Assembly (NCBI GenBank): GCA_036785375.1 | Contig: JAWMAR010000174.1 | Location: 4,960,001 to 5,024,000 of the forward strand | DNA from: Leucoraja ocellata | Lineage: Eukaryota | Direction: 5' to 3' | Length of the DNA stretch: 64,000 nt | Part shown: positions 10,480 through 61,130 of the stretch, piece after piece | Numbering within the stretch: position 1 is the first letter of the stretch | How the letters are laid out: each line of letters opens with the position of its first letter | Notes under the pieces: generated by a model | Database searches by the model: none | Seen by the model: only the letters and a program-made list of their open reading frames with translations | What the model was told of the DNA's origin: nothing | Made by a program: the position numbers and the translations under genes

Positions 10480-10610
10480 AGATAGACATAAACGGCTGGA
10501 GTAACTTCAGATCTGAATCTGAAGAAGGGTCTCGACCCGAAACGTCACCCATTACTCCTCTCCAGAGATGCTGCCTGTCCTGCTGAGTTACTCCAGCTTT
10601 TTGTGTCTGA
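10480..10610 (+). mobile_element. Penelope-like terminal repeat with intact minimal hammerhead core at 10519-10546 and a short inverted partial copy upstream
   Basis: CTGAAGA-A-GGGTC-TC-GACCC-GAAA-CGTC; same repeat family terminates the GIY-YIG remnant at 32670-33950. Confidence 0.75.
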
Positions 10611-13600
10611 TAGTCATTTATTTCCACAAACGTTGGAACTGGTTCCCTCTCTCCATTTTTAGTCCTATGTGCTTCCGATGCCACCCATTACAATTCTGTG
10701 GCGGTAGTTACTATATCGAGATATTTTTGTATATTTGTCAACATGTGGAACCAAATTAGCTTCAGGACGTCTGTAAATCTCAACATGTTCTTTACCCAGG
10801 GATATCCTGCATATGAAAGGGAATTGGATATTCTCAAAATAGGGTGAATTAGGTTGTTTGATCAGAGTTATGGCTCATGCATATGGGCACCATTGGTTGC
10901 ATGCTTTTACAACTCTTTAACTATTTGCAGTATTTCTGTGTCCTGGTTGTACATCCTTCTACTCTGGCTTCATTGACTCCAACCACTTTGCTACTTAAAC
11001 AATTATACCCATACACTCTGAGTAAGTCTAAACTCTGCAACTATGTTCTTTACCAAGATTCTCCTGGAAACAAAGGATAAATTATTCAAGTGAACACAAC
11101 CAAAACATTTGTAAATTAAAGAACTAAAGAATTGCAAGATAACTAATTCTCTTTAAAAATAGTGACAACTGGATAGATCTGGTTTTGTTTAGCATTGCAC
11201 ATTGGCCTGTCATTGACACTATTGTTGTTTTCTGGCACTCTGCTCAGCTTCCCATTACTGGCACCACACTGTACCACCTTTTGGCACAATTGTTTACAGC
11301 TTTTAGTTTTTAGGAACAGTAGTATAAATATTAAACTGCAATGAACAAGGAATCTCTTTGTTAAAATATTATCTTGGCCTTTGCTTAACAGTGAGTTCCC
11401 TAAAGGTTCAACTTTTAAAGGAAAGTTCCAAATGCTCAGTGCAGCATTTTAAATGATTCCTGGTGCTTTCTAGGTTGAGTAATCACTGCATTCAGGAGTG
11501 AAGACACAAAAGTAGCTGAGAACACTGGATCACAGAATCGAAGTGGAGAGACAATATCATTGCTTGGACGTCCTCACTCCCAAAGGCATTGACTCAGGAT
11601 GGAGTCATGTATTTTTTCGGAATAATAGTTCTGACATTAAATTGCAATGAACAAGGAACCATTTTGTTAAAATCATATCTTGGCCTTTGCTTCACTACAG
11701 GTTCCCAAATAGTTCAAATATAAAGAAAAGTTCCAAAACCTCTCATGGGACTTGGCATCTTTTCTACACACTGTGTCCAGACTGGAGTAACTCAGCGGAC
11801 CAGGCAGCAACTCTGGAGAAAAGGAAAAGGTGACGTTTCAGAGTATTGGAGTAACTCAGCGGGACTGGCAACATCTCTGGAGTGACCATGAGATGCTGCT
11901 TGGCCCATTAAGTTACTCCAGCATTTGGGGATTTTATGGTAAACCAGCATCTTCAATTCTTGTGTATACAAGTCAGCTTTTCAATCGATGTTAGCTTAAC
12001 TTGATTATTTTTAACACTGTGGCCCAGTAAGGTGGATTGGATTAGTCCTGCTTTTTGTGTACAGCACAATTTTACAATTTGTCAGATTGATACAATTGTG
12101 ATGGGCGCATTGAAAACGAGCCATCATTAGATCTATTGCATGTTTTTAGTACAGTGGTCTGGTGCGGCTCACCTTACTAGAACTGGTGCTCTCAATCAGA
12201 TTTTAAATGAATGTTATCTGAATCAATTTGGTTGAGGACATTGATGGTCATGCAGTTGTTTAATGCATCCAACACAGCAGGACTTTGATCCCACCCGTTT
12301 CAGAACACAGATCTGTCAATTGCATACGTTTTGTCATCTTGCAGCATCATCCTTTGGACAGTTCCCTTTCCTGATTAAGGGTTTAGACCCAAAATATTAA
12401 CTACCCGTTCGCCAGAAATGCTGCCTAACCCATTGGAGTTATTCCAGCATTCTGTACTTCCCTCTGAGCCACTGTTGGTCACCTGTCATAACTGTAATAA
12501 TATGTGGCATATTCTGGGCCATGAGGTGACAAATTAGGGTCGATTAGAAATACTGTTGTAGAAGGTTCCCAGCACCCTACAGATATGTAGATCTGACTAA
12601 TTGTTCCCTTTTAGCTGTGGCAGCGCCAAGCAACTTTATGGAGGATGTCTTCAGATACAATGGTTTATCAAAGTAGCTCCTCCACTGCATGAACTGAAAC
12701 CCCAACTTTCACCACTGACTGACACGTACAATAGGAATGACTTTGCAATGTCCAAATGCGGTGTGGAACAAACATGAATGCTTGATGATTGAAGTCAACT
12801 TAAAGTTACTAATCAATGATAATGGGGCCGGCTCACTCCTGTGCCACCCTTTGGTGATAGATTTCCAACTTGCTTGACTTTATATGGCACCTCTGCTTTG
12901 GCTGCAGGCAGACCAACAATATAGACTTGCTGAAGACACAAGGATGCAGATGCTGAACTCCACAGAGAGCAGGAGTAACTCGATGGGTCTCTCCAATCCA
13001 TGGATAGGAGACATTTTAGGTCAGGCTGAGTTTGAATAAGGGTCCTAACCAGAATCTTTGCCTAGCCATGTACGCCAGAGATTCTGCCTGACCCACTTGG
13101 TGTTCCAGACTTGCTGCACATATTCGCTGTTTCGAGAAGACATTTCTGGGGATCATCCAACGAGTCTCTTAGTGGAACCGAGAAATCAGAAGAGGGTGAT
13201 CACTTATTTTGGGTTATACTATAGGCGCCATAAACTCAGTGGCAATAAGAGGAAGACATATGTATGGATATCAGAGACCTGGAAGAACATATGGTTATAA
13301 TAGTGGTGTATTTAAAGACTTCTTCAACCTTCTTAAAGTCTCCATCAGATTTGTCCCACCTGCAGCAACTTCTTTACTGGGCCACCATCTCCCCTTGCTG
13401 AATCTACTCAACGCCATCTGGCAGCTGTGTCTACAATAACCAGCAATCAATTCAGCTGGCCACCAGGCCATTGCAGCTGTAGTCATTGCTTCAGCCTGCA
13501 GCTTCTGGCATTGGCCTGCAGAAGTGAGAGCAGTGCATTTGTGAACAAGTTGCAATGGGTTTGAATGGTGAAAGATAATATATGGGTCCACATTGAAGAA

Positions 13601-13703
13601 TATTGTTGGTAGGAGAAGGATGGAAACATACTACATGAAACAGTATGCAGTTAGTGGTGCAGTTGTTAGATGTGAAATGTTCTCCTTCAATACACATGTA
13701 AAC

Positions 13704-13818
13704 GTAAGTCGTAGATAGAAACTAAACGCTGGAGTAACTCAGTGGGACAGGCAACATCTCTGCAGAGAAGGAATGAGTGACGTTTCTGGTTGAGATCCTT
13801 TTTCAGAAGTAAGTCGTA
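13704..13818 (-). mobile_element. Short Penelope-derived repeat with 10-bp target-site duplication GTAAGTCGTA
   Basis: TSD at 13704-13713 and 13809-13818. Confidence 0.7.
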
Positions 13819-14009
13819 ATGTGCCAGAAGAAACTGCAGCTTCTGCCTTATATCAAACATGTCACAGGGTTAATATCTTGCTGTTATTATCTACTCTCAG
13901 CCAGTCAATGAGATGTCCCTTGTCTCCCAGGTTCTTACTTTTGCTTTAGATGCCGACATGGTGGCAGTCTGCTCCACTTTAAAACTCATTAAAATTAGTT
14001 TTAAATACA

Positions 14010-14042
14010 TTTATTGATAAATAAATCAAAACAAATTTTATT
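14010..14042 (-). terminator. Candidate distal CHSY1 polyadenylation signals (two AATAAA on the minus strand)
   Basis: TTTATT at 14010-14015 and 14037-14042 at the end of an about 3-kb AT-rich, repeat-poor stretch; proximal hexamers also occur at 17064 and 17098. Confidence 0.45.
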
Positions 14043-18764: not shown

Positions 18765-19929
18765 CTGTGAAGAAAGGAAAACGCAGAGATCAAACTTCAT
18801 AGATATGCGCAGTGTTTTCTAGGAGTAAGTAGGCCATTTGACCTCGAGTCTTGTCCACTATTTTAATTCCATCCAACTGATACTCAAATTCAGTACGCTG
18901 TTCTAGCTTTTCCCTCATATCGCTGCTCTCTCTTTGTGTCAGTCAGTCTTTGTGTTCCAGGTGACGCTATGGGAGGTGCTGAGTCAAGTACAATGGTGAT
19001 CAACTCTGAGACCACGATCGGCGCTCCTGAACCACAGGCACAGGCTGGGCTGACACTGTTTCATCCAAGGACAGACTGACCGACCTAAAACTGGGCCCCT
19101 TTTGGCCCATGCTGCTCAGATGGTGCACACATTTGCTGACTGGATTTTGAATGAGCCATTGCCCCAGGTGCCAAAAAGTGTGCCTGCTCTCTGATAAACC
19201 TCTGCTTGTTAGGAACATTACGCACTAATCACCCATGGAAAACTTGACCTACATATCAATAACGCGCTGTAGTAAGAAAATACAAATTGCGTCTCAAAGG
19301 AGTTTGAAAAAGGCAGAAGCAAAGCACAGAATGACAGTGTATTTTCAGCAAAGCATTGCCACAGCCAGATAATTCTAACCCAACATTTATATTCAACACC
19401 AGCTTCCCTTCACGCAAAAATTTGATACGGTGTTTTTAGTAAACGCTTGCAATGTAAGATTTAAGCAGCACCATATATATTTCAGGCATCATCTTCCTTT
19501 GTGCTCTGTGTTGGTGCCCTCTGTGGGCACACTGTATGCAGCAGCACACCAGCTTCACCCATCCTGGAGAAGATTCAGTACACAGGCCTCCTCAGCTTCA
19601 TGTTTGATTCATCTTCTATCTCGGAGTAGCTGAATGATTTAAAATGCTACCGTAGCCCCTAACATTGCCCCAAAGATACGAAACACTCCAAAATACTAGC
19701 AGCATAAATAGTTCCAATGATAGGTGATGGAGCTGAAACATAACTGTTTCATGCTTCACTAGCACTGCCCAATTACAGAGTATACGACTTGGTTCCAAAC
19801 TGCCCATTACACACGTCCAATGATTTAGGATTCAAAAGGCCACGTATCAGGACTTGAAACATTTCTGCCTTTTGTTTTCCTTTTTATTAAGGAAAGCCAA
19901 TTTATGGTACGGGAAAAAAAATGCTTCAA

Positions 19930-20740
19930 AAGATCATGTGATTGGAGCAGAATTAGGGCATTCGGCCCATCAAATGTATTCCGCCAAACAATCATGGCTG
20001 ATCTATCGCTCCCTTCTGGCCCCATTCCCCTGCCTTCTCCCCATAACACATACTAATCTACTATCTATGCCTTATAAATATCCACTGACTTGGCCTCCAC
20101 AGCCTTCTGTGGCAAAAAATTCCACAGATTCACCACCCTCTGACTAAAGAAATTCCTTCTCATTACCTTCCTAAAAGAATGTTATTTAATTCTGAGGCTA
20201 TGACCTCAAGCCCGAGACTCTCCCACAAGTGGAAACATCCTCTCCACATCAACTCTATCCAAGCCTCTCACTATCCTGTGTATTTCAATGATGTCCCCCC
20301 TCATTCTTCTAAACACCAGTGAGTACAGGCCCAGTTTTGTCAAACGCACATCATTCCTGGGATCATTCTTGTAAACCTCCTCTGGACCCTCTTCAGAGCC
20401 AGAACATCTTTCTTCAGATATGGTGCCCAAATTTGCTCACAATATTATAAATGGAGCCTGACCAGCGCCTTATAGAGTCTCAGCATTACATCCCTGTTTT
20501 TGTATACAAGCCCTCTCGAAATAAATGCTAGCATTGCATTTGCTTCCTTTACTAACCGATTGCGACTTGCAGGAATCCTGTGCCAGCCAAGTCCCTTTGC
20601 ACCTCTAATTTCTGGATTCTCTCCCCATTTAGAAAATGGTCTACACCTTTGTTCCAACTACCAAAATGCACGACTCCACACTTTACTACACTATATTCCA
20701 TCTGCCACTTCTCTGCCCACTCTCACAACCTGTCCAAGTG
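19930..20740 (-). mobile_element. CR1 LINE 3' fragment, degraded
   Basis: KEANAMLAFISRG..LYKALVRLHL and LGLYSL..RMRGD ORF2 peptides plus CR1 tail. Confidence 0.9.
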
Positions 20741-22459
20741 CTCCTGCGGAGTCCCTGTCTGCCCCTGCACCTATTTTCTTGGGGAGGGAAACTAATAACA
20801 TGCAAGTAATGTTAAGAGACCAACGTAATCCTAGAATGTATGTCTTCAGATTCCCAATATTGAAAAGACAAGTTTTCTGAACCAGCTTAGCCAAATCACA
20901 ATGCGAGAGCCATTCATGCTACAATTATATAAAAATAATTACTGTTAAACCACCACAAGGAGGATGTGACAGCACTAGAATTGTAAAGTAAGTTGATGAG
21001 AGTCATGCAGGTCAAGTCATCGCACCATACCTGCAAGAACATTTGTAGATTATCATCAGGAATACAGCTCATCGACCTATAGTGCTAAAGATCTTTAACA
21101 AGGTATCCAACAAAAAGTTGTCAAACATTTTTATACTTTATACTAAAATCAGATTCACACATCAGACCAAATTGTTGGTTAAATTTGAGAGATTACTCCA
21201 TGATCAATTGTTTACCACTGTAAATATTAATGCCTCTCTCCGCCCACCACTAAACATTTTCGTAATCAATTCAAAAGAGGTTCTTTTTGCACATCCCACA
21301 CCAAGTTATTTGAGCCCATAGGCAGAAGTGAAAACAGAATCTGTGATTGATGAGAGGCAGGATCTGGAATAGGCTTGAATTAGCAAGGAATGTGCAGTTT
21401 ATTTTACAGTGCGTCTGACACATGAAGCAGAGGCATAGAAAATGCTTTGTTTTTAGTTGCTGTAAACAAGAGTTGTTTATGCAGCATGCAGAATATCAAG
21501 GCATCGGCTCCCAACACCTTTGTAAGTGCAACTTGCCTTCTTTCTAGGTAGACTTGGACAAATTCAGAGAAACACATATTGAGATTTCCCCCTCTATCCC
21601 TGGAGAACAACAGACTAAAATAGTATAGACTGCACTGCCATGTCCAGCCACCAGAGTTCCATAGGTCTCACAAAGTGCAAGATTTAATGGAAATGTTTAA
21701 AATATTATCAGCACATTCAGCTTGAAACCATCAGCAATTTAAAATAGTTGCAAAGAAATTATTGCTGGTTAGTTGGGATGGAATCTTCCTTGGACATTAT
21801 GTACAGTGAACAGAATTAATAGTTCCCAGGTTTAATTAAGGGAGTTTGAATCGCAGCATATTTTGTGAAAATAGGTTAATAACTAAACAAAACAGTAAAT
21901 CCAGGCTTGTATCCAAATCTAAACTGGATTCAAAACCTAAAGCAAGATTTAAAACATTGCTCCATTGTAATGTTAAATTGAGGTTGCTGGCCTAATCAAT
22001 AATCAATGTCGCAACCTCAATTTAACATTACATTTAGAGAATTCACGTGCACGGAGATGGTTATGGTTAAATAATGGAAAAAGGAAGAGCCGAATGATTG
22101 CTCATTCTCAAACTGAGTTTGTGAAACTGGATTGTCAACTTTGCTTCTGGAACTGGTACTCTCTACAGAAAAAAAGAGACTCGGCTATATTTGTGGATGA
22201 TGCCATAAAATATGTACTTTCCTACCTAATAATTATTTTTAAAAAGTGAACCTCTAATTGAAGATTCATATTTTCTCATGGTGCACACACATCATAGATT
22301 GTAATAACCCAAGCCCAGGGTAGTAGGGCCTTGAAGGTTAGAGTATGCAGCCCAGTAGAAGTTTGCATTGACGTCCTTACTCATTTGGGCAGAGCCTGCA
22401 TGGATGGAATAAACCCTGTGCTTTATCCATCCACAAGCAATTAGTCAAAGAGTGATAGC

Positions 22460-23550
22460 GTCGAAACAGGCCCCTCCTTGTACATGTCTAACTGTTTCTT
22501 AAATGCCTCAGCTACCTCATCTGGCAGCTTGTTCCATACAACCACCCTTTATATGAAAAAGTTACTTCTCAGACTGATATCAAATCTTTTCCCCCTTCAC
22601 CTTAAACCGATGTCCTCAATTCACCTCCTCTGGGCAAGAGAATGTGTGCATCTACCCAATCTATTACTCTCATGATTTTATACATCTCAATGAGATCACC
22701 TCTCATCTTCCTGCGCTCCAAGGAATAGAGTCCCAGCCTACTCAGACCCTCTAGTCCGGGCAACATCCTCGTAAATCTTCTTTGATACCTTTCCAGCTTC
22801 CTAAAGCATAGTACCCAGAACTGACCACAATACTCTAAATGCAGCCTCACCAACGTCTTATACAATTGCAACATGATTTCCCAACTTTTAAAGCCTTTTT
22901 GACCACCCGATGTGCCTGCGACCACCTTCAAGGAACCATGCACCTGCACACCTAGATCCCTCTGCTCTATAACACTCCCCAGAACCCTGCCATTTACTGT
23001 GTAGGTCCTGCAATTGTTAGACGTCCCAAAATTCAACACTTCTCTGTATTAAATTCCATCAACCATTCCTCAGCCCAGCAGGCCAATCGATCATGATCCT
23101 GCTGCAATTTTTCACAACCATCTTCACTATCTGCAAAACCACCCACTTTTGTATCATCTGCAAACTTGCTAATCTTGCCTTGTATGTTCTCATCCAAATC
23201 ATTGATGTAGATGACAAACAGTAACGGGCCCAGCACCGAACCCTGAGGCGCACCACTAGTCACAGGCCTTTCACCATCACCCTCTGCTTCCTGCCATGAA
23301 GCCAATTATCTAGCCATTGAGCTATCTCTCTTTGGATCCCATGCAACCTAACCTTCCATAGCCTACCATACAGCACCTTGTCAAATGCTTTGCTGAAGTC
23401 TGCCCTCAGCGACCTTTTTGATCACCTTTTTTTCCAAAAACCTCAGATTTGCAAGACACAACCTCCCACTTACAAAACCATGCTGACTATCCCTAATCAG
23501 CCCTTGCCCAACTAAATACCTATATATCCTATCGCTCAGAATATGCTCTA
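22460..23550 (-). mobile_element. CR1 LINE ORF2 (reverse transcriptase) fragment
   Basis: SQHGFVSGR, GAPQGSVLGPLLFVIYINDLD and KFADDTK RT motifs with frameshifts. Confidence 0.93.
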
Positions 23551-25569
23551 TTCTATTTCTCTCTATTCTATTCCTTTTCTCAAGGGATCTAAGTTTTAGA
23601 CTATTGCGATAACTTTCATTGCAGTGCTTGTTTCCATCCTTGCTGGCCAACAAACTTAGTCCACTCTGATGTTCATGCATTAGGTCCAACTGAGATTGTA
23701 ATAATCAATACTGACACAGTTAATCCCATGTTGGTATTAATGTCCTGGTTTCTGACAAAACTCCACCCATCCAAGCAGGTCCACTCCCATGAAGTTTAAA
23801 AATCCCAAACACTAAATTCATTCATTTTTCTTTAATGAAGGTTGTCTGCCAAGATTGGCTGTTCAATGTGCCAGGATTTGCTATCCAGAGGCCCCCTCCG
23901 AATGCTGTTCAATGAGGTAAATTTTCTGACAGAGAAACTATTGTTTAGCTTTTAATATAAAGTGTGACAGAGCAAAACTGATATTTTAAAAGCAAATGAC
24001 AATATTATATATTTATACACACATCAGCCTCCTGAGGAATTTAATAAAAGTAATCAAATGAAAGTAGTCAAGTTTTATTCTCCCTAGGTTCAATATTCTC
24101 CCAATTCTCAAAAATACTACATTAGTTTCATGTTTACTTTCAAACCAGCCCAGGGGCCCCGTTTCCCCCAGCATATTTTGTACAAATCAAGAACTTAAGA
24201 CTGTTATTTTGCGACCATGCCTATCAAAAGCTGTTGTTCAATTGGTTAATCCTCATTCTATAAGTATTGAAAATGACAACAGTTCTCAGAATCTAAAAGC
24301 AGAGAAAGGAAGATTTAAAAAAAATTAAAGACCTTCTGGAGCACAAACTCTTCCAAGCTTCAATGAGCAACAGCTTTAAAAAAAGGTCCAGAATGCAAGG
24401 GAGTCGAGGGTGGCTGGGCTGAATACAATATCTCATCTAATTCTAGTTCCATACAACCCTGGTACTAGACAGCTCCAGAGAAAACAAGGAGACAAGACAC
24501 TGGAGTTATTGGAATCTTGAGCAAAAAACACAAACATCTGGAGGAACTCAATGGGTCAGGCGTCTGTTGAGGAAATGCGCAGACAATGTTGTGTCTTGAC
24601 CCTTCTTCGCACTCCCTGTAGAAGTAGCTTCACTGTATCCATCCTGTTGAGGTTCCCAATAGTTTGTTTAGATGAAATCAGCCCTCTTTCTACAACTCAG
24701 GGACCCTTTCCGCTCATTCTTGAGATTAAATCCACTGCATTGTCCCAAATGCAGCATGCGCAAGTTCAAACTGTGTAAGTACTCCAGAGATGTTTGCATA
24801 TAATCAAAATGCCGTAACAAGGGGTTACAAAGGGGATGGAGTGCCAGTGAATGTGCCTTCCTAATTACCTGCATTCCAAAACTTGCAGATTGAATAAATC
24901 TTAATATAAAAGACCGAAGAAAATGTAAGCATTTTGATATTCTATTCCTTTTACCAAAGTGGATACACTCGCATTTCCCCTTATTATATGTCAATGCCAT
25001 ATTTTCACCCATTCAAGCCAAGTAACTTCCTCCTCACTCAAACCCGTGTACCCATCTGTCGCGGACGGCTGAACCCTGAATTTGCCCTTTAGCAAATTCA
25101 TTAACAGATTGAAGCACCACTATATTCTGGGGTACAACAATAATTTAACTTTTATCCACTGAAGAATGGTCCATTTATTCCCACCATTTTCTATCAATAA
25201 CCAATCCTCTACTAATACCAATACTGTATCAATAACCAATCCTCTACTAATGGTCGATTCTTTGGAAAGTGTACCAAAATGTCACACACGTGACCAATCC
25301 TATTTGACCTCTTACCTTAAACAAACATTGTCAGCATAACATAACATTTTCACTTGATAAACCGAAAAATAAGAATCATACATAAATGATACCAGAATGA
25401 AGCACTGGTATCAAGTACAGTGGCCAGTAAACTCAGCCTGACAAAAACCACAACCGATTCACTAATATTCTTCAGGAAATAATGTATACCACCCTTGCCT
25501 CGTCTGACCAATGTAGTTAACTTTTAAATGCTTCTTCAATTCAGGATCATCACAGGAGGGAAAACAGAC

Positions 25570-25680
25570 ACCGTCGTTGTCAGTGGTAGACAAAAATGCT
25601 GGAGAAACTCAGCGGGTGAGGCAGCATCTATGGAGCGAAGGAAATAGGCAACATTTCGGTCTACGACCATCATTGTCAGT
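25570..25680 (-). mobile_element. Short Penelope-derived repeat with about 15-bp TSD (ACCRTCRTTGTCAGT)
   Basis: Family sequence flanked by near-identical direct repeats with two G/A differences. Confidence 0.65.
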
Positions 25681-26320
25681 CATATCCATGACTCATGATC
25701 AAAATCTGTCAAGGCTTTTAATTTAATGTAACTTTGCAGACAATCTCTAGACCCTACCTGGTCATGTTATGGTTTCATATGAATCAGCATTTTCCCGACA
25801 ATCAATATTGTGCTCATCCTCCTGCAGGGTAATGCTTTCTCCTTCCTTCCATTTATGGATGGACATCTCAGACTGCAAAATGGCAAATATACAGGAACCT
25901 TTGACAATTTACAACAAAAGTACCAACATCTTTTAGAACCGGGATGTGCAGGTTATCACATGCAATACATCTGTCAGCCTTGGTCTCATTAGTTTATGTG
26001 GCACATTTTCTCATGATGGATTTTCATTCTTTTACTTTCCTAATTCTTGTATTGTCGTTAATCTGTTTTAAATCTTCTCGCATTTCAGCTCTAAGGGAAA
26101 CACTTACTTTGGCATTTAAGCATTAAAGATTTTGTAAGAGCTTCAAAAGCAAGTTTCTTGTCAATTTACTTCTATTTTCTTCCACGATCAATTAGTTAAT
26201 ATTATCTGCTTATTCGCCCAACTCTGGCTTACTACTTTTGCAACTTTGAGCTTTTTCAAACGAATATTCCAAGTTTAGTTAACCTTAGTAGATCCTTATT
26301 TCCACAGACTTTATTCCATA

Positions 26321-26321
<1 letters not shown>

Positions 26322-26353
<32 letters not shown>
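26322..26353 (+). repeat. Poly-G homopolymer (32 nt)
   Basis: Read directly. Confidence 0.95.
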
Positions 26354-26354
<1 letters not shown>

Positions 26355-28319
26355 TACACATATGTTAAGAACATTAAAGTTTATACACAGCAAAACTATT
26401 GTTTGTTGGTTTCTAAGATTCTCCTACAGGCTCCGTTTCCTGCAACTTGAGCTGTTTTCAATCCAATATTCTTGAGACAGCAGTTACCCACAGCGGCATT
26501 TCTAATTCTCAATGTTATTTACTTGTCTAGAGACTTTTCTACGAACCCGTCTACTGCGCTTCGTTAACTTGGCTTTAGGACTATAGTTGCCAATTTATAT
26601 TCCCTGGAGTAAAGATACCATCATTATTGCATTACCTTAGTTACAAACCCATTTCTATTACGTGCATCAGTATTGCATTGCACATAGAAACGGCATGCTC
26701 TGATATAGAAGGTAAACCGATTTAAATGTTCTCTTATCACAAGATCACCACTTCATTCATTATTTTGCCTAAACGTTCTACACCATCAAGCTTTTACCTT
26801 CGGCTTCGTTGCAGCTAAGAGAGACACCATTGGGAAAACAACTCTTGTTTTGCTAGTAATTAAATAGTATTTATTCATCTTCCAGGATGGTTCTTGATCT
26901 GGGCATTAATGGCAAGGCCAGCAGAACTTGTTGCCCATGGCCAATTGCCCTCAAGCCTGCGTTCTTGAATCACCACAGTTTATCTGCTGAAGATACTTCT
27001 ATTGTTGTTGGGTAGGATGTTCCAGGCCTTGGGCATTGCAATACATTTCTAAGTTGAGATGCTTTTGCCTTGGAGGAAAACAATCAGATGGTGATGTTTT
27101 TCTTCATCTGTTGCCCTTGCCATTTAGAACAGATCGGGAAAAATTCCATTGCCCAAGATGGCCCTTGGAATCCTGGACCACAGAAGGCAATGGAAGCCAA
27201 GTTATTAAATATCACAACTGAACAAATAACAGAATTATAAATACATGGGTTATTAGGAGGAGGTAGGAACAGGTTACACAAGTGCACGATGAACCATGAT
27301 CATATTAAAGGGGGGAAAACGGGACCTACCTCTGCTGCTATTTTTACCTCCCAAAACATATACTATCAAATGCTACCTTGATGTCAATGTCCTTGGCCAA
27401 TGGTTGGATCATGTTTTAGGAAAGTCTTGGTATGCCATCCTCTACTTTAATGGTTTATGACTAAATGCTACATGACTGCACAGCTTGTTTCAATGTTGGT
27501 TGCAAGGACCGTAGGCTCCATCATATGCTACTCAGCACAAATGTAGCCCTGTATTGCAGTTTTACCAGCTAGGACTTCCTTGTTTCTTCATAAGTACACC
27601 TTGTGCTAGTCTTGACTAACCCCTTCACCATGCCTCTGAATCACAGCTGATCCCCAGTTTGACTGCAACAGGAAGGTGAGGGACACATCAGGCCATGTAG
27701 GTAGAGATAGCGATGTACATTTCTGCATTCTGCTTCCAGCTTTATCCCCCCAACCACAGAATCAGTCTGAAGAAGGGTCCCGACTTGAAATGGCACCTAT
27801 CCATGTTCTCCACAGATGCTGCCTGACCCACCGAGTTATTCTTTTACTGCCCTTATTAGCACTCCTTAAGTATTTTGTCCAATTTGAGTCCAATACTTGG
27901 TACATGTGAACTGGTGGAAGTTCAAGAAGCACATAACGTTGATTCAGGAATGATGGGACCGATTTACAAAAAGAATTGTGCAGGTTGGGCCCTAATCTCG
28001 CAGTTTGAGAGGTCACCTTACTTTAAAACAGTATTGAGGGGGTTTGTTAGGGTTTATGCCCTCATGGGAGATGAAGGTGAGGAGAGGGTTTGCATTGGAG
28101 GGCATAGTTTAAGGAACTGCCAAGACAGACCAGGGAACCATTGCTAGGGCCAGTTACACTTTGGAACTCTCCGTCCAATAAGCTAGAGATATCAATTAAT
28201 TGTGTACATTGAAAAAGCCATGATAAAATTATTGGACTAAAGACATCAAGACTTTACGAAAGCACGAAAGAAAGAGGCCAACATACGATCAATAAGATCA
28301 TAAATAGCAGAACAGGTTA

Positions 28320-28680
28320 CATAGAAACATAGAAATTAGGTGCAGGAGTAGGCCATTCGGCCCTTCGACCCTGCACCGCCATTCAATATGATCATGGCTG
28401 ATCATTCAACTCGGTATCCCGTACCTGCCTTCTCTCCATACCCTCTGATCCCCTTAGCCACAAGGGCCACATCTAACTCCCTCTTAAATATAGCCAATGA
28501 ACTGGCCTCGACTACCCTCTGCGGCAGAGAGTTCCAGAGATTCACCACTCTCTGTGTGAAAAAAGTTCTTCTCATCTCGGTTTTAAAGGATTTCCCCCTT
28601 ATCCTTAAGCTGTGACCCCTTGTCCTGGACTTCCCCAACATCGGGAGCAATCATCCTGCATCTAGCCTGTCCAACCCCTT
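28320..28680 (-). mobile_element. Young CR1 3' end with (TTTCTATG)n tail
   Basis: Nearly identical to 49895-50257. Confidence 0.95.
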
Positions 28681-28824
28681 ACATGATCTAATCATGTTTC
28701 CATTTTTTTAAAGTCAATTGTCAGTAACTAGTCCACACATCAAGAGTTTACACTGAGAACTAAGTCAAAGGTATATGACAATTGCACTCATTAAACAACA
28801 AAGCACGAGGTTTTATTTCGTAAT

Positions 28825-29660
28825 GCTTCCGGTAGGCGGCGCGACTCTCGTCAGCAGCGGCCTCTGCAGCCCGTTTTTATTATTTTTTGTCTATGTTTCT
28901 ATGTAGTTTTTGTTATTTTTTTGTTGGGGTGTGTGTGTGGGGGTGGGTAACTTTTAAATCTCTCCCTGCACGGGAGACCCGACCTTTTCTTGTCGGGTCT
29001 CCGTTGTCGTTGGGGCTGCAACGAGGAGCGGCCTCCAACAGGAGAAGACCGGGGGCTCTGGTGCCGACGACTCACCTCACCGTCGCGGAGCTGGCCGAGT
29101 CCAGAGCGGGTGGAGCGCTGCTGCTGCTGCGTCCCGACCTCCGGAGATTCTGAGGCTGCAACTGCGGGTCTGGCGGACGGCAGCACCGGGAGCCCGCGTC
29201 CCTGGAGCGAGACCGCTTTTCAGGGATCTCGCAACGGCGACTTCTCCCGCCCGAGTTGCGGGGTCGAAGAGCTCCTGGAGCGGGGCCTGACATCACCGCC
29301 CCGCGCGACTTGGAATGGCCGCGGGACTCTGCAAGCGCACGCTGGGGGCTCTAACACCAAGACCCGGTGTGCGAACCTCGCACCACCCGGCGTGGCTTTA
29401 ATGACCGCGGGACAATCGCCATCGCCAGCCGGGGGCTTTGACTTTGACTCTGACATCGGGGGGGGGGGGGGGGGGAGAGTGCAGTGGAGAGATAAGTTTT
29501 TTTGGCCTTCCATCACATCGCTGTGTTTATGTTTATGTAAATTATGTTGCGTCTTGGGTCTATTTGTTTGTAATGTAAGGCTGCAGAAACGCATTTCGTT
29601 TGGACCTCAAGGGGTCCAAATGACAATTAAATTGAATCTTGAATCTTGATCTTGATCTTA
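28825..29660 (+). mobile_element. CpG-rich, probably non-autonomous retroelement ending in a short TCTTGA-type tandem tail
   Basis: Sharp GC/CpG-rich insert in an AT-rich intron; LINE-like 3' end TGACAATTAAATTGAATCTTGAATCTTGATCTTGATC; family not identified. Confidence 0.55.
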
Positions 29661-31412
29661 TTTAAAATTTACATGTTATCAAATTGTGGCAATAGAATTC
29701 CATTTGGTGCAATCTACATTTTTGTGAAGAGAAACAGGACAGTGCGGATATCCTTACACCAATTCAATTCAAATGTAGGATATCGAGCTACATTCTGTTA
29801 CTGTTAGTCTCCTCAACTTGATTTCAAAGATAACCACAAAATATTTTTCCTATAAAAATAACTAAAACCTTAGGCAAAGAGGAAATGTTGCTTTGCTATG
29901 TTTGCTATTGCATCAAATTTAAGAAGAGGATTAAAATGATATAAACACATATATAAACAAGGAATGTTCAAAGAATTTGATGCCAGTGACAGAAATCTTC
30001 CATCTCCAATAAGAGTTATACATAGTGGGATAGCACATGTGCTCAGACTATTGGTCCTGGGTCTGAAAATGAATGGCAGGCCAAGGTTCAAGGGTTGAAA
30101 TCTTGAAGGTCATTTATGAAGCTGCTCTCCTTGGATGTTTTTATAAATAACAAATTTGAACAAAAGTGGGCATACAACCACTTAGAAACAAAGAGTCTTT
30201 CATTGTTGGATGCATTCAATTGCATTGCAATAACTCAAGTTTATTACAGACATTTTACTAAACAAGGTAGCACAATGACCCATGTATCCAAATGCACAGA
30301 TGGAAATAAAATTTGCAGATCCTTGCACAATTCCCATTACAATTGATTTTCTTCTAAATTTAAGCCAACAAAAATGCACGAAAGCAAGAAAATGGTTGGA
30401 AAATTTCACAACGTGGCCGCATATTCCCAAGCATAAGGATGAACCAGGAAAGAGAACACTCATTAATTAAACCATCTGCAGAGAATAGTTCTAGCCTTGA
30501 TTCTGTAGTTGAAGGCAGAACCACAAGTGGGATCTTGTTTCCAGGAAGTCTCGCTATTTAGGCCACTCTCAGCCATCTGGAGTAAGGGGCAGCACCAGGC
30601 CAAACCAACAGCAAGTACCTGGGGCTCCACATTTTCACTACAGTTAGAAATTACTACTCAGAAATCCTGCCTCCGTTTGACTTGAAGCTTATGTAATCCA
30701 TAACTGGGAGAAACACCATTTGGTTTATTGGAACTAAATGACATAAAGCTAGAAAACCGCATTTTAGGATATAGACAATGGGCTCCCTTACCAGTTAAGT
30801 AAGAAATGAGTAGCCTGAGGATTTGTTTAACAGGCCAGTCTCTGCTAAAAGCCTATTCACAGCAGCAAGGAAATAACATGCAGCACCACATCTCAAAATG
30901 TCACAATTATTCTTGGATTTTGTTTAAACTTTCATCTTCGGAAAATCAGTAACAGAAAAAGATATTGATAAAATGACCAACCAGGACACCACCCAAAGTC
31001 GTGACTACTCTGAATACGAACTGTTTGTGCAGTTTTCAGGATTTTGTGGTGAAAATAAGTTTCTAGCTTTGTTTATTACTGTGAAAAAGATACATTTGTT
31101 GATAACCAGATTTTGCAGTTTTGAGTGAAATGAACAAAGCTTATGGTCTAGATTGGAGCATTGCCAACTTTCCAGGCCTGCCTTCTTAGCTATTCAAATT
31201 ATCCACATGCAAAAACTCTTCTAAAAACACAATTGCAAACTCTGCTGTCACATTTGAAATAAATATGGTTGACAATTAAATTGGTGAAGAGGGAAACAGA
31301 GGCATAGTACTGGGTACATTTCACTGAAGGGCAAGCAATGATGGACTTGGAAGTTTTATGTGACAACAATTTCAGAGGTAGAGGTTTGTGAGCAAGACCA
31401 AAAATGGTATCT

Positions 31413-31654
31413 GATTCTAAATGTGCAGGAAGGACCTGCAGATGCTGGTTTACACTGAAGATAGAGACAAAATGCTGGAGTAACAGCGGGACAGGCAGCA
31501 TTTCTGGATAGATGAAATGGGTGACGTTTCGGGTTGAGACTCTTCTTCAGACTCCGAAAGGTCTCGACCCAAAACGTCACCTATTCCTTCTATCCAGAGA
31601 TGCTGCCCGTTTCGGCGAGTTACTCCAGCATCTGGTGTCTATCCGATTCTAAAT
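31413..31654. mobile_element. Inverted pair of Penelope terminal repeats with 10-bp TSD GATTCTAAAT
   Basis: Minus-strand copy followed directly by a plus-strand copy; TSD at 31413-31422 and 31645-31654. Confidence 0.75.
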
Positions 31655-32669
31655 CCTAATCTGGAGATTTATGATACAGAGTATAAAATATTATCTGATA
31701 TTAGTTTAAGGAACACATCTTAATAGAAACAAACTAGGAGTTAGTATTGCTGATGATTAGCAAATAGCAGAGATGAGGTCTTTGAGACCTCAAGCATAAA
31801 AGAATCTGCAGATCTGGGCTGAGAAATTCCACCTGTCGTTCTCATAGGTCATAGGCCAAAACCCAATGCTGATCTGGTTCAGGATTTAATTGTTTATTAA
31901 GAAGCATTCCAACATGCCCATAATAAGCATTTGCATTTGAATCATGCAGACGGTATTCAAAGTCAGTAAGCAATCAGTCTACTGCTCTTCGCACTCTGCA
32001 GCCTGACCTGCAGAAGATTTCCAGCATTGTTTTTATATACACAGTTCCAACATCTAGTTTGTTTTTTAGTTACAAAACAGGAATCGTGTCACCAAGTCTC
32101 AGTGTGATGCAAAAATATAAAAATGCCCTCTTTGATGAGCAAACCTCAGGAATTCACAAAGTTACATAATGTTTGGAACAGAAATATGCTGTCAGTCTTG
32201 TCACCATCTTGTTTTGAAAGACATCATTCCAATTCAAGGTTTTTCATAAAAAATGTTTTAATAAAAGGCCACCTTCCACTAGTAAAATCCAGTGACAACT
32301 ACATTGCAATCCAGAATGCAAAAAGTGGCCTGTCTGTATGGAAGATAATTCAGCTCAGATCCAAACCTACAACTTTTACCTTTCTGCAATTTTGTGCACA
32401 CTATCTTTGCTTGAAATCAAATCTAAAGTCAGCTTTTACCCAGCTGCTTAAAGCTCAAGGGGCAAGGAGACAGGAATCACCAAACTCCATGTTGGCTGCA
32501 CATCATATAATGACCAGTTCCAGCTGTGGGAGATCTGGATCATTTGGAATACAAAACATTTTATTGTAGAGAGAAACATTGCAATACAATTCTAAAAGCC
32601 TAGTCCGTTGCAGGATATCAACTGTGTCCACATTCAAAAGGCATTCCACAACATTTATAATTTGCCATG

Positions 32670-33950
32670 CAGGAAGGAACTGTAGATACTGGTTTAAACT
32701 AGACACAAAAAGCTGGAGTAATGCAGCGGGTCAGGTAGCATCTCTGGAGAAAAGGAATCGGTGACGTTTTGGGTTAAGACCCTGCTTCAGACTGAGAATC
32801 AGGGGAAAGTGAAACAAGAGCAGTGATATAGAACAAATGAATGAAAGATATGCAAAAAAGTAACAATGATCAAGGAAACTGTCCATTGCTGGCTGTGTTA
32901 TACAGACAATAAACCTCAAAAGGACAACAGTGAAGCATCTGTGGGTGATGTTTTGGGTCGAGACCCTTCACCGAACGTCACCCATTCCTTCTCTCCAGGG
33001 ATGCTGCCTGCCCGGCTGAGTTACTCCAGCATTTTGTGTCTATCTTCGATTTAAACCAGCAGCTGCAGTTTCTTTCTGTACAGGACAGCAGCAAAACTAG
33101 TACAATGACCTAGGAAGGGGGAGGGATGGAGAGAGAGGGGGATGCAAGAGTTACTTGAAGTTAGAGAAATCAATATTCATACCGTCAGTTTGCAAGCTGC
33201 CCAAGCGAAATATGACATGGTGTTCGTTCAATTAGCATTTGACCTCACTCTGACAATGGAGGACAGAAAGAGGAAGAAGGGTCTCGAACCGAAACGTCGC
33301 CTATTCCTTCTCTCCATAGATGCTGCCTCACCCGCTGAGTTTCTCCAGCATTTTTTGTCTACCATGGAGGACAGAATTGTCAGTATGGCAATGGGAGTTA
33401 AAGTGTTTGGCAACTGGGAGATCTCATAGGCCAAGGCGGACTGAGCAAAGGTGTTCAGCAGTCACCCAGTCTATGCTTGGTCTCGCCAATATACAATAGC
33501 CCACACCTGGAACAACGAATACAGTAGATGAGGTTGGAGGAGGTACAAGTGAACCTCTGCCCAACCTGAAAGGACTATCGGGGTCCTTCGACGGAGTCAA
33601 GGTAGGAGGTATAGGGACAGGCATTGCATCTTCTGCGGTTGCTGGGGAAAGTACCTGGGGAAGGGGTGGTTTAGGTGGGAAGGGATGAATTAACCAGGGA
33701 GTTGCAGAGGGAACGGTCTCTGCGGAAAGGGGTGGAGATGGAAAAATGTGACTAGTGGTGGGATATTATTGGAGGTGACTGATGGGGTGAAAGGTGAGGA
33801 CTAGGGGAACTCTGTCCCTGTTGCAACTGGGGAGGGGTGAGTAAGAGTAGAGCTACGGGGGTACCGAGGAGGTACGTGTGAGGGTTTCATCTATGATAGA
33901 AGTGAGGAACCCTTGTTCCCCAAAGAATGAGGACATCTCGGATGCTCTGA
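32670..33950 (-). mobile_element. Penelope-like retroelement remnant: GIY-YIG endonuclease end plus terminal repeat, with nested repeat copies
   Basis: Minus-strand translation PGTFPSNRRRCNACPY..QRFTCTSSNLIYCIRCSRCGLLYIGETKHRLGD (about 33460-33660) with a stop and a frameshift. Confidence 0.88.
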
Positions 33951-34897: not shown

Positions 34898-34970
34898 ACT
34901 CAGCAGGCCAGGCAGCATCTCTGGAGAGAAGGAATGGGTGACGTTTCAGGTGGAGACCCTTCTTCAGACT
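34898..34970 (-). mobile_element. Penelope terminal repeat with intact minimal hammerhead core (34940-34967)
   Basis: Minus strand CTGAAGA-A-GGGT-CTCC-ACCT-GAAA-CGTC. Confidence 0.7.
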
Positions 34971-50427: not shown

Positions 50428-51388
50428 CTGGACACAAGGAGAATACATTAATACATTTAAAGAAGCTCCAACCTTAAGCAAAATAGATTTTACCTTTAGG
50501 AATAGGCATAGGAATAGTTCATATCCGATATTATGAAATATAGATCAAATAATTCTTATGAATGCAGAACTAAGACAAACTTAATACATTGACCAGAGAG
50601 AAGACTACATTTCTGTCCAAAGACAATGATTTACTGAGTTTTCTGTTACATCTAGAAGGTGGGTTGTCCACAATGTGAAACTAACAAACCACCATCAAAT
50701 CACAATTGAAGTCCAATGGCATCAAAGTTCAAATGTAAAATTATTCCAAAAACTCTTAAAATATGATGAGAAAATATAGTAGAAATAATAATTTCTAATA
50801 ATATGCTCAACCTTCTCAAATGGATGTCATGAACCCAGCTTGTAGGGATCAGTCTGAAGCGGGATCTATCCATGTTCCCCGTAGATGCTGCCTGACCAGC
50901 TGAGTTACTCCAGCACTATGTGTCCTTTTGTGTGGATCAGTTATCATAATGCAAACCCTCCAGTCCCAGAAACATCCTCATAAAACGACTTTGCACCCTA
51001 CCAATCAACCTGTCTTATCAATGACAAAGCAAATAGAAGTTTGCAGAATGATAAAAAATATACGGTACAAGAAGCCATTCTGACTATCACATCAATGTCT
51101 ACTTCGAGCTTCCAATAAAAGGTCTGTAGCCCCTAATAAACAGATTCAAATCCAGAGCATGAAATAAACTTTAGTCAATCACAAGCCAATCCAGCCCAAG
51201 ATTTATGTAAAAATTAACTGCAGGTGCTGGTTTATACAGAAGATAGACACAGAGTGCTGGAGTAACTCAACGAGTCAGTCAGCATCTCAGAAGAAAAAGG
51301 TTGGTGGCGTTTCAGGTTGGGAGCCGTCTACAAACTATTTTTTTCCTGTCTGAAGAAGGTCCGGACCCCCGACCACCCATTCCTGTTC

Positions 51389-51642
51389 ACGTCACCTATC
51401 CATGTTCTCCACAGATGCTGCCTGACCTGCTGAGTTACTTCAGCACTCTGTGAAACGTCACCCATCCATGTTCTCCACAGATGCTGCCTGACCTGCTGAG
51501 TTACTCCAGCACTCTGTGAAACGTCACCCATCCATGTTCTCCACAGATGCTGCCTGACCTGCTGAGTTACTCCAGCACTCTGTGAAACGTCACCTATCCA
51601 TGTTCTCCACAGATGCTGCCTGACCCGCTGAGTTACTCCAGC
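51389..51642 (+). repeat. 66-bp tandem array (4 copies) of the Penelope terminal-repeat segment
   Basis: Units start at 51389, 51455, 51521 and 51587. Confidence 0.92.
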
Positions 51643-57300: not shown

Positions 57301-57334
57301 CTGCTGTCACCGCCGGCCCCTCGCGCTCCTCCAT
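57301..57334 (-). CDS. SELENOS: Probable SELENOS exon 1 CDS (MEEREGPAVTA + G)
   Basis: ACGATGG Kozak ATG next to a CpG-rich promoter; phase-1 donor CAG|GTGGTT (weak) fits exon 2; total 174 aa with Sec at 173. Confidence 0.72.
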
Positions 57335-57420
57335 CGTTTCACTTCCGACTGATCCGTTGGTCACGTGACATCCGGGACCGCTCGACCAATCAGAGCAGCG
57401 ACTGACGTGGCAAATCAGGA
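57335..57420 (-). promoter_or_regulatory. SELENOS proximal promoter/5'UTR: ETS ACTTCCG, palindromic E-box GTCACGTGAC (57360-57369), CCAAT (57386-57390), UPRE TGACGTGGCA (57403-57412)
   Basis: Motifs read directly within 80 nt of the ATG. Confidence 0.75.
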
Positions 57421-57498: not shown

Positions 57499-57590
57499 TG
57501 ATGGGGGTTTCGGCCCGAAACGTCGCCTATTTCCTTCGCTCCGTGGATGCTGCTGCACCCGCTGAGTTTCTCCAGCTTTTTTGTGTACCT
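57499..57590 (+). mobile_element. Penelope-derived repeat, GGGT-TTCG-GCCC subfamily
   Basis: Matches 60368-60460. Confidence 0.7.
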
Positions 57591-57952
57591 GTTGATGGAA
57601 CATCTGGCTCTGGCTACTGGACATAAGGGCCCGTTTCGCACCACAGACTGTGCTGGATCATGTCTGATCCCCCTGGATTTTCACAGCAGGTGTTGCAGTA
57701 TAATTGTCACTCCATCCGGACTCTATCCCAACCGAGATTCTGTTTCCTTTCCAACTCCAATCCTCCTGTACAACTAATCACAGAATCATGCATGCCCATC
57801 ATGTCTTTAGTTTAGAAATACAGCATGGAAACAGGCCCTTCAAGTCAAGAGTTTATTGTCATGTGTCCCAGATAGAACAATGAAATTCTTGCTTGCTGCA
57901 GCACAACAGAATATTGTACGCATAAATGCAGATCAGTGTGTCCATTTACCAT

Positions 57953-57953
57953 A

Positions 57954-57990
<37 letters not shown>

Positions 57991-57996
57991 TATATA
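57953..57996. repeat. (TG)n(TA)n microsatellite
   Basis: Read directly. Confidence 0.9.
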
Positions 57997-59572: not shown

Positions 59573-59578
59573 TTTATT
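59573..59578 (-). terminator. Probable SNRPA1 polyadenylation signal AATAAA
   Basis: About 305 nt downstream of the stop. Confidence 0.7.
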
Positions 59579-59882
59579 ATCAAAATCCTGACAAGCAAAA
59601 CATATACAGCCTGAACATGATAATTGAAGTGAATGATACTTGGTTAGAGTGAAAACACAAACCAATCTTTTCTGCAGTGAGGTCTGACTTGGACAATAAG
59701 TTGTTCCTGAGCAGTATTCCATTGGGTGATAACAGGACATTGCAGTTTCCAGGTGATCAGAGCCTGCCCATAGACAAAACCACACACAAGCACAATGCTC
59801 ATCACTTCACTAAATTCAAGGTTCATCTCCAAAGCGGAGACCACCCAACAAAGAACTTTAACATAAACACATTAGGGAAGCA

Positions 59883-59944
59883 TTAGTTGCCGTTGGTTAC
59901 AGAATCCGCCTCCATATCTTCTTCCTCAACTTCATCTGTAGCGC
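59883..59944 (-). CDS. SNRPA1: SNRPA1 (U2 snRNP A') last coding exon (GATDEVEEEDMEADSVTNGN*)
   Basis: tttacAG acceptor; matches recalled PTDDGEEEMEEDTVTNGS*. Confidence 0.92.
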
Positions 59945-60355
59945 CTGTAAAAACATAAATGTCTGACATCTTAAACTTGCTACTCTTTTTATTCAAAGAT
60001 TAAAAGATTGACAATTGTTAATAAAATAGTTTCACAAGGATGTTGAGGGTTGCTTTAACCAGTACTGTAACGGAGCTCAGTATTACATTATCAATTAGTA
60101 ACAGTACCTGGGCTGCACAGTTCACTCAGATAGTGTTTACTACCAGTCAGCGTGTAGTGACAGCAGTGGAGAGATAATAATGTTTGTTGACATAATGGAA
60201 AAAGTTCTGCCTTGCTTTATAGAAAGGGGAGATCGGCAGAGATCTGGGCAAATAAAAAAGGAACTAAACCAAACAAGTGTAGAATTGCAAAAAAATTATA
60301 ACAGAGCCATTCAGCCATTATATTCATGCCAAATGAAAAAGAACTGCCAAACATA

Positions 60356-60472
60356 ATCTCACTATCCTTAAAGAAGGGTTTCGGCCCGAAACGTTGCCTA
60401 TTTCCTTCGCTCCATAGATTCTGCTGCATCCGCTGAGTTTCTCCAGCATTTTTGTGTACCATCTCACTATCC
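60356..60472 (+). mobile_element. Short Penelope-derived insertion with 12-bp TSD ATCTCACTATCC
   Basis: TSD at 60356-60367 and 60461-60472. Confidence 0.78.
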
Positions 60473-60777
60473 ATCACTAGTTAGGCCTTTTCATGTACAA
60501 TTCCAAGTTTTATTTAAAATGTGGGGTTGTGTCTCTATTCACCTTCCAGGCTCACACCCAGCTATAAAGCTTTCACTTTTCAACAGATTCTAAATTGTCT
60601 GATTTTTTAGCCTTCTGCAAAAAGGTGTTCTCTAATTACAGTATCTAGATCCTTCATAATATTTTACACCCCAATTAAATCTTCCAGTCTCTTATGTTCT
60701 GATAGAAACAGCCTCTCCAATCAATAAAATGGGGGCTCAATCCATGGGAGCTCAGAAATGAACACACTGGACAAATG

Positions 60778-61130
60778 TTAATCTGATCAAAGATTGACAC
60801 AAAATGCTGGAATAATTCGGCAGGTCAGGCAGCATTTCTGGAGAAAATGAATAGATTATTTTTTGGGTCAAGACCCTTCATCAGACAGAGTCAGGGAGGG
60901 GGACACTGGAGGTTTGGTTTAATCTGATCAGTCTAGAAAAGGGAAGGCAGAGTTTTCTCTGATCTTACATACTCTGCTTGTTCCTTTTTGAATCTCGAGG
61001 GGGATAGGAAATATAGTAGCTCTGAAGAAGGGTCTCGACCCAAAAATGTCACCCATTCCTTCTCTCCAGAGTTGCCGCCTGTCCCGCTGAGTTACTCCAG
61101 TATTTTGTGTCTACCACAAGGAATATAGTT
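60778..61130. mobile_element. Two further Penelope-derived repeats (minus 60790-60918 with TSD TTAATCTGATCA; plus 61021-61113)
   Basis: Family sequence with mutated hammerhead cores and flanking direct repeats. Confidence 0.7.

What the first reader, a model, noticed from the sequence alone, without database searches (positions are those of the whole stretch)
10480..61130. Window-wide family of short repeats carrying minimal hammerhead ribozyme cores
Seen: well over 15 copies of an about 90-130-nt repeat. The best copies read CUGAAGA-[A GGGUC UC GACCC]-GAAA-CGUC (10519-10546 +, 34940-34967 -, 31523-31550 -). Helix II varies but keeps pairing (GGGU-CUCC-ACCU, GGGU-UUCG-GCCC), and a palindromic ACGU stands in for helix III. 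Established: Penelope-like elements carry minimal type I hammerheads thought to cleave as dimers. Inference: these are ribozyme-bearing Penelope termini inside CHSY1, SELENOS and SNRPA1 introns, some in sense orientation. Caveat: helix I looks only about 2 bp, so activity is uncertain.
Basis: partly seen in the sequence, partly recalled or inferred. Interest (0 to 1): 0.7.

Follow-up and report, generated by a model that had tools for sequence, protein, structure and literature searches.

The report
Clipped Penelope ends carrying decayed hammerheads
These repeats are the short tail ends of a known kind of jumping gene (a Penelope-like retrotransposon), probably in a skate or ray; they carry a known self-cutting RNA motif that is broken in most copies and likely does not harm the host genes, and the one oddity is that many copies stop exactly at the motif's front edge.

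Summary
In detail: 39 copies in the window, with the three cited cores at the stated coordinates. They are 3' pseudo-LTR tips of a Neptune-type Penelope-like element. A decayed RT/GIY-YIG fragment at 33970-33154(-) runs into one copy, 34 of 41 ORF ends are followed by the repeat, and an intact 1247-aa element carries it at both ends. The motif fits the published minimal hammerhead, but only 3 of 39 window copies keep all core boxes. One oddity remains: 29 of 100 young copies start 0-6 nt before the core and 0 at the cleavage site, while only 1 of 18 copies that pass an internal pLTR stops there (p=0.005). The stop is therefore tied to the end where reverse transcription began. The scan found this family, and the sharp edge, on other DNA of this genome before.

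The parts
10511..10609 (+). Solo pLTR tip; core 10519-10546 with all boxes, helix I only 1 bp; lies between the LRRK1 and CHSY1 stops
   Evidence: predicted to be locked in a hairpin by the upstream inverted piece
10459..10506 (-). Inverted partial copy upstream of the 10511 copy
13691..13808 (-). Solo tip with 10-bp target-site duplication, core broken at G8
18765..36151 (-). CHSY1-like intron holding 12 copies, 7 sense and 5 antisense
   Evidence: Pfam CHGN/Fringe on both exons; GT..AG ends and copy list
31419..31556 (-). Tip with tail; core 31550-31523, all boxes, helix II 3 of 4 pairs
31556..31680 (+). Inverted partner of the 31419-31556 copy (head-to-head pair)
   Evidence: (I8, I21)
33154..33970 (-). 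Decayed Penelope-like ORF 3' part: RT thumb region, Cys linker, GIY-YIG nuclease (33458-33574), with stops and frameshifts
   Evidence: Pfam GIY-YIG E=0.015, below its cut-off; 150 scored genome matches at 89-100%
32666..33153 (-). Pyrimidine-rich 3' UTR and terminal repeat of that element (32799-32666; core broken at A9 and G12), with a nested inverted pair at 32942-33084
33256..33376 (+). Solo tip inserted into the nuclease-coding region, 13-bp target-site duplication
34885..34972 (-). Best window copy: core 34967-34940 passes the strict descriptor; sense in the CHSY1 intron; 8-bp target-site duplication
51203..51642 (.). Broken sense copy (51339-51203) and an antisense array with 66-nt units that lack the CUGA box, in the SELENOS gene body
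57505..57603 (+). Solo tip of the sister subfamily, 9-bp target-site duplication
60370..61118 (.). Three solo tips in the last SNRPA1 intron (60370+, 60891-, 61020+), each with an 8-12 bp duplication, none with a whole core

Best explanation
The repeats are the 3' pseudo-LTR tips of a Penelope-like retrotransposon that is still intact elsewhere in this genome; they were likely made by target-primed reverse transcription that started at one of two fixed sites and stopped early, and they now decay neutrally and likely do not cut host pre-mRNA. Shown: linkage to RT + GIY-YIG ORFs, two fixed 3' ends (+93-98 and +125-133 from C3, the 'tail'), target-site duplications, inverted pairs, neutral decay, no strand bias. 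Inferred: the element's protein nicks the target and copies its RNA from the tail site (as shown in vitro for the Anolis element). The ribozyme is likely functional only in the young element's own RNA, with help from protein or a second copy. The excess of stops at the ribozyme's 5' edge is likely caused by something on the initiating end itself, most likely the protein-bound ribozyme region (my odds 0.45, against 0.35 for short initiator-driven RNAs).
For: Decayed ORF running into a copy in the window. 34 of 41 ORF ends have a same-strand repeat within 700 nt, chance 0.15 each (p about 1e-21). Intact element L135: inverted partial copy, pLTR, 1247-aa ORF, pLTR, with RVT_1 E=1.9e-6 and GIY-YIG E=0.011. 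58 of 150 scored loci are 100% identical over 155 aa, the query's own place included; 7003 exact copies of a young 35-nt motif. 3' ends of 100 young copies: 59 at +93-98 and 37 at +125-133. Duplications of 8 bp or more in 25 of 117 edge copies vs 1-3 in five mismatched-flank controls. Core mismatch 3-9% vs 6.8% neutral, G12 22% in a CpG. Strand: 322 vs 329 of 651 hits; intact 26/151 vs 25/144, OR 0.99. Edge stop: 29 of 74 copies at risk (5.6% per nt vs 0.46% just downstream and 0.30% just upstream), but 1 of 18 at an internal pLTR (p=0.005).
Against: Both Pfam scores lie just under their cut-offs, and clade placement rests on the Cys linker, with no tree. The strand test is modest in power (OR 95% interval 0.54-1.81) and covers five stretches in four contigs whose host strand I took from Laminin_G_2 exons. 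The hammerhead fold is not the predicted fold even in the young element (helix II probability about 0), so activity anywhere is unshown. No call shows a protein-bound stop. The two sets compared for the edge were chosen differently (first 100 exact motif matches; top 30 BLAST loci of 1952 candidates).
Confidence: 0.85

Rival explanations
1. The short copies come from short RNAs that start at an initiator (TCAGT) on the ribozyme's 5' edge, either from a pLTR or from solo copies, so they are run-off products or a SINE-like family mobilised by the Penelope protein.
For: TCAKTY occurs only at -3 and -670 in the last 1.6 kb of the young element. The C and A at -4/-3 are kept in all six subfamily clusters although they do not pair in helix I. 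Penelope elements have internal promoters (PMC2377424, section 15) and an Inr-like TCACT in a rotifer pLTR (PMC3846280, passage). It would explain the 2-bp helix I.
Against: The modal end is -2 (11 of 100), not -3 (2 of 100). No excess of an untemplated cap G: 4 of 13 at depth 3, 9 of 22 at depth 2. 26 other YYANWYY sites hold few ends. Only 1 of 18 ORF-start copies stops there, so full-length templates must start upstream.
Confidence: 0.35
2. The copies are active intronic ribozymes that cut host pre-mRNA as dimers and are under selection.
For: 3 of 39 window copies keep all core boxes, two of them sense in the CHSY1 intron and 3.4 kb apart. Published Penelope minimal hammerheads show low dimer activity (PMC4209133).
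Against: No strand bias and neutral decay; no covariation. The active fold is not favoured: dimer -7.3 vs -12.4 kcal/mol for 34967 and -5.3 vs -8.5 for 31550. One young copy of 100 has its 5' end within +26..+30 and none at +28.
Confidence: 0.06
3. The edge is a 3' splice site (pyrimidine tract, CAG|UCUGA), as in the Drosophila virilis element, and short copies derive from spliced RNA.
For: Pyrimidine-rich UTR ending in CAG in most ORF-linked copies listed; the D. virilis intron ends at the 5' end of helix I (PMC4209133).
Against: The candidate donor GT at the stop codon is missing in several ORF-linked copies. No shared upstream exon precedes edge copies. No such joint is among the 15 listed (168 more not shown; reads come from a species label that may be a relative).
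Confidence: 0.08
4. A purely sequence-driven break makes the edge: the TCAG-T-CTGA palindrome, or a G-quadruplex in the cDNA just beyond it.
For: A 4-bp-arm palindrome is centred at -1, and four G runs lie at -9 to -27 on the cDNA. Several inverted junctions use the palindrome.
Against: The same sequence at an internal pLTR stops 1 of 18 copies. Other palindromes in the element hold 0-2 ends each.
Confidence: 0.12

Closest known systems
Minimal type I hammerheads of metazoan Penelope-like elements (Cervera and de la Pena 2014, PMC4209133)
   Same: Core boxes, extra base between 9 and 10.1, G10.1-C11.1, palindromic 15.2-16.2 in place of helix III, position in the pLTR, and thousands of dispersed single copies related to truncated elements
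   Different: Helix II is 4 bp (7-8 in Schistosoma) and helix I 2 bp (4-5 there; 2 in D. virilis). Little sequence variety between subfamilies. Density of about 0.6 repeat copies per kb, far above the 4,000-9,000 descriptor hits given for coelacanth and Xenopus (the counts are not made the same way).
EN+ Penelope-like elements, Neptune/Nematis type (Craig et al. 2021, PMC8557442)
   Same: Single ORF with RT then GIY-YIG, CX2-5CxxC linker, partial tandems, inverted 5'-truncated copy, 30-40 bp tail
   Different: 1247-aa frame with a long Pro-rich insert, against roughly 700-1100 aa for most listed homologues; a strong stop at the ribozyme edge is not described in the passages I read
Poseidon element of Anolis (Frangieh et al. 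2024, PMC11167929)
   Same: Two adjacent RT start sites that define the tail; no RNA ends seen at the cleavage site
   Different: There the ORF starts inside stem II; here the first Met lies about 160 nt downstream. Different clade.
Non-LTR retrozymes (bioRxiv 10.64898/2026.07.22.740005)
   Same: Non-coding, pLTR-derived, hammerhead-bearing repeats in vertebrates, including one cartilaginous fish
   Different: Retrozymes are tandem arrays with a whole ribozyme in each unit; these are dispersed solos, and the one array here lacks the CUGA box

Membership tests
Minimal hammerhead of metazoan PLEs | CUGANGA, GAAA and NUH core boxes | tested here: met
   All six subfamily clusters and the young element (GUU triplet); only 3 of 39 window copies
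Minimal hammerhead of metazoan PLEs | Unpaired base between 9 and 10.1; G10.1-C11.1 pair | tested here: met
   A in 94% of 295 copies; G-C in 202 of 284, G-T in 44 through CpG decay
Minimal hammerhead of metazoan PLEs | Palindromic 15.2-16.2, no helix III | tested here: met
   CG in 176 of 286
Minimal hammerhead of metazoan PLEs | Helix I of 4-5 bp (2 bp in the D. virilis variant) | tested here: inconclusive
   2 bp; the third position pairs in 11%. Fits the variant, not the common form.
Minimal hammerhead of metazoan PLEs | Compensatory changes among families | tested here: not met
   0-2 double changes per pair, at or below shuffled means; the subfamilies differ only by one-sided U-A to U-G changes, so power is low
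Minimal hammerhead of metazoan PLEs | Located in the pLTRs of a Penelope-like element | tested here: met
Minimal hammerhead of metazoan PLEs | Self-cleavage as a dimer or with protein help | not testable with these tools
   Folding predicts other structures
EN+ PLE, Neptune/Nematis type | One ORF with RT and C-terminal GIY-YIG | tested here: met
   (scores 28.2 and 16.4, under the cut-offs 29.6 and 22.6); 750 homologues at E<=0.001
EN+ PLE, Neptune/Nematis type | CX2-5CxxC linker before the nuclease | tested here: met
   C-x4-C-x2-C in P0001 and in the window fragment; criterion from PMC8557442
EN+ PLE, Neptune/Nematis type | pLTRs, inverted 5'-truncated copies, optional 30-40 bp tail | tested here: met
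EN+ PLE, Neptune/Nematis type | RT phylogeny inside Neptune | not tested
   No named reference set was at hand
Non-LTR retrozyme | Tandem units, at least two with a whole hammerhead | tested here: not met
   The only array (51452-51642) starts each unit at model position +20
SINE | Own promoter and solo-specific subfamilies | not tested
   Needs genome-wide subfamily analysis and start-site data

The most novel reading that the evidence does not exclude
The sharp 5' edge records an undescribed step of Penelope retrotransposition: reverse transcription begun at the tail ends at the front of the ribozyme on the same pLTR, but not at a later pLTR, yielding a defined 95-135-nt mini-element. It has spread to roughly two million copies and may be re-copied from its own initiator as a hammerhead-bearing SINE. 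The young, near-identical family makes this testable at single-base resolution.
Probability: 0.4. Interest if true: 0.55.

Novelty: new member of a known kind. Interest (0 to 1): 0.3.

Why it matters
As a ribozyme discovery it is ordinary: Penelope minimal hammerheads are published, and these copies behave as neutral fossils. Its value lies in the mechanism. How Penelope-like elements end their cDNA, and what their hammerhead does, are open questions. Thousands of near-identical young copies show that the cleavage site does not set insertion ends, while the ribozyme's 5' edge on the initiating pLTR does.

Tried and rejected
Rfam: no hammerhead model hits at E<=1. Bare core pattern: not above chance. 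MITE or DNA transposon: rejected; the inverted arms are two copies of one pLTR tip, and the tip is linked to an RT ORF. Cleaved RNA as template: 0 of 100 young 5' ends at +28. Splice donor at the stop codon: not conserved. Cap-derived G: not seen. L050 looked like a partial tandem, but its flanks suggest a young insertion next to an older solo copy. Sequencing runs: no RNA holder listed. Three raw RNA runs added by species label and one contig set were laid on the young junction: no place where many molecules begin or end. Reads in two single-cell runs lay mostly antisense over the whole element, not only the ribozyme, so I do not count this as evidence. Whether the 10519 copy lies in an LRRK1 3' UTR stays open. 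A first pass over the young copies used a shifted motif and caught only 33; one search replaces it. The column table was offset; one search replaces it. The subfamily-by-edge table uses a crude pyrimidine filter and is not relied on. Lunse et al. 2017 was not readable; I saw it only as cited in PMC6765202. No supplements were read, and the alignments in the supplement of PMC4209133 may already list a cartilaginous-fish motif.
Full report
Setting. The window is G000:C174:4960001-5024000 of a 3.44-Gb assembly. It holds the 3' end of LRRK1 (+), a CHSY1-like gene (-; Pfam CHGN and Fringe; the name CHSY1 is recalled from synteny), SELENOS (-) and the 3' end of SNRPA1 (-). That the host is a skate or ray is recalled from the look of the repeats and comes from no call. 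The assembly holds duplicated contigs (identical pairs), so genome-wide counts are inflated.

Observation. Profile searches give 42 hits with a window-seeded model (0 in the reversed window) and 39 with a model rebuilt from 243 intron copies. Of the 39, 14 span the core and 3 keep every core box; only 34967(-) passes a strict descriptor. Placement: 1 in an LRRK1 intron, 11 between the LRRK1 and CHSY1 stops, 12 in the CHSY1 intron (7 sense), 3 between CHSY1 and SELENOS, 6 in SELENOS (1 sense), 3 upstream of the SELENOS exons I mapped, 3 in the last SNRPA1 intron (1 sense). Nine have flanking direct repeats of 8-13 bp (a tenth hit is the tandem unit; no control for this window search). Density is 0.61 per kb here and 0.65 per kb in 1.0 Mb of introns; scaled up, about 2.2 million (an extrapolation).

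What it is. At 33970-33154(-) the window holds a broken ORF end with a Cys linker and a GIY-YIG motif, then a pyrimidine-rich UTR and a repeat copy. In the intron set plus window, 56 tblastn hits gave 41 ORF ends with enough flank, and 34 are followed by a same-strand repeat within 700 nt. A young sister subfamily is near-identical genome-wide (58 of 150 scored loci at 100% over 155 aa; 7003 exact matches to a 35-nt motif, 0 for the reversed control). L135 is a whole element: inverted partial copy, pLTR, 1247-aa frame, pLTR, with RT and GIY-YIG matches just under Pfam's cut-offs. The CX2-5CxxC linker marks Neptune or Nematis (PMC8557442, passages); I built no tree.

The ribozyme. The motif has the marks listed by Cervera and de la Pena (PMC4209133, parts 1-2 of 4 read): core boxes, extra base after A9, G10.1-C11.1, palindromic 15.2-16.2. 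Helix II is 4 bp with a tetraloop and helix I is 2 bp. Among 295 copies that span the motif, core positions mismatch at 3-9%, like neutral columns (6.8%); G12 reaches 22% as part of a CpG. No pair covaries beyond shuffles. Folding puts helix II near zero probability in the young element and at 0.05 or less in the three window copies; in the young element and in 34967 the purine run of the core pairs with downstream CCUUC instead. This fits, but does not show, the protein-assisted behaviour of the Anolis ribozyme (PMC11167929, parts 1-2 of 4 read).

Effect on the host. I took 1.0 Mb between same-strand Laminin_G_2 exons on four contigs. Of 651 hits, 322 are sense and 329 antisense (p=0.81). Intact ribozymes are 26 of 151 sense and 25 of 144 antisense (OR 0.99, interval 0.54-1.81). 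The independent descriptor gives 29 vs 30. A halving of intact sense copies lies just outside the interval; a mild effect is not excluded.

How the short copies arise. For the first 100 exact young matches on two contigs (two duplicated pairs and a tandem array included), 3' ends fall at +93-98 (59) or +125-133 (37), the two-site tail signature that Frangieh et al. traced to RT start sites. The 5' ends: 26 in +1..+57, 29 in 0..-6 (mode -2, 11 copies), 6 in -7..-50, none at the cleavage site +28. The edge excess holds for non-inverted copies alone (15 vs 9, p=2e-9). In older copies, 117 of 322 end within 12 nt of the core, 95 have an inverted partner and 110 run further upstream. To ask why, I took the 30 best loci holding the ORF start. 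Eleven have their 5' alignment end downstream of C3; five of these continue as an older pLTR type. Of the 19 that reach the core (18 after dropping one duplicate), 1 stops at the edge, against 29 of 74 for terminal pLTRs (p=0.005, or 0.009 after removing duplicates from the young set). So the sequence alone does not cause the stop, and element transcripts do not all begin there. Either the protein-bound initiating end halts synthesis (my odds 0.45) or a separate pool of short RNAs starts at the TCAGT initiator (0.35); a splice site or a palindrome/G-quadruplex break is less likely.

Against my reading. Ribozyme activity is unshown for any copy. The two sets in the edge test were selected differently and are small. 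RNA reads show no pile of ends and no listed splice joint, but they come from a species label holding under half of the element's words and mix thousands of loci.

What is known. The kind is published (PMC4209133; PMC8557442; bioRxiv 10.64898/2026.07.22.740005, parts 1-3 of 5 read, which includes one cartilaginous fish; PMC2377424, passages and section 15; PMC3846280, PMC6155905 and PMC6765202, passages). Six searches showed no paper on this family's sharp 5' edge; subscription papers, Repbase and supplements were not seen. Earlier notes of this scan (69 fit, 8 shown) reached the same identity and noted the edge; they are unchecked AI notes and I formed my reading before seeing them.

Verdict. 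Real, correctly identified as Penelope termini, a new member of a known kind, mostly inert; interest 0.3, carried by the mechanistic clue.

Noticed in passing
window 51344-51642 (+): Minisatellite of 66-nt units born from the repeat, in SELENOS; the units lack the CUGA box, so it is not a retrozyme
   Followed up: partly
window 33256-33376 (+): Solo tip nested in the nuclease-coding region of an older element, with a 13-bp duplication
   Followed up: yes
L136 pLTR and window 34967 (-): A predicted helix between the core's purine run and downstream CCUUC blocks the hammerhead fold in both subfamilies; it could be an off switch
   Followed up: partly
L263-L267: Five loci join an old-type pLTR body to the young-type tail and ORF start: a chimeric or intermediate subfamily
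   Followed up: no
L135, protein P0001 residues about 180-520: Long Pro-rich, partly repeated insert before the RT, making the frame 1247 aa
   Followed up: no
L136 UTR, -27 to -9 from C3: Four C runs with 1-nt spacers; the cDNA strand could form a G-quadruplex
   Followed up: partly
window 22602-23704, 49359-50165, 52113-52530: Fragments that look like CR1/L2 LINE RT ends (recalled; no Pfam hit at E<=0.01 for 49359)
   Followed up: no
window 155-568, 1942-2920, 4145-4969, 55636-57368: Minisatellite-like repeats that give long spurious open frames
   Followed up: no
window 18765-36151: The CHSY1-like gene has one coding intron here; two in human is recalled, not checked
   Followed up: no
G000: Many loci occur twice with identical flanks, so the assembly likely holds both haplotypes in part
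   Followed up: no
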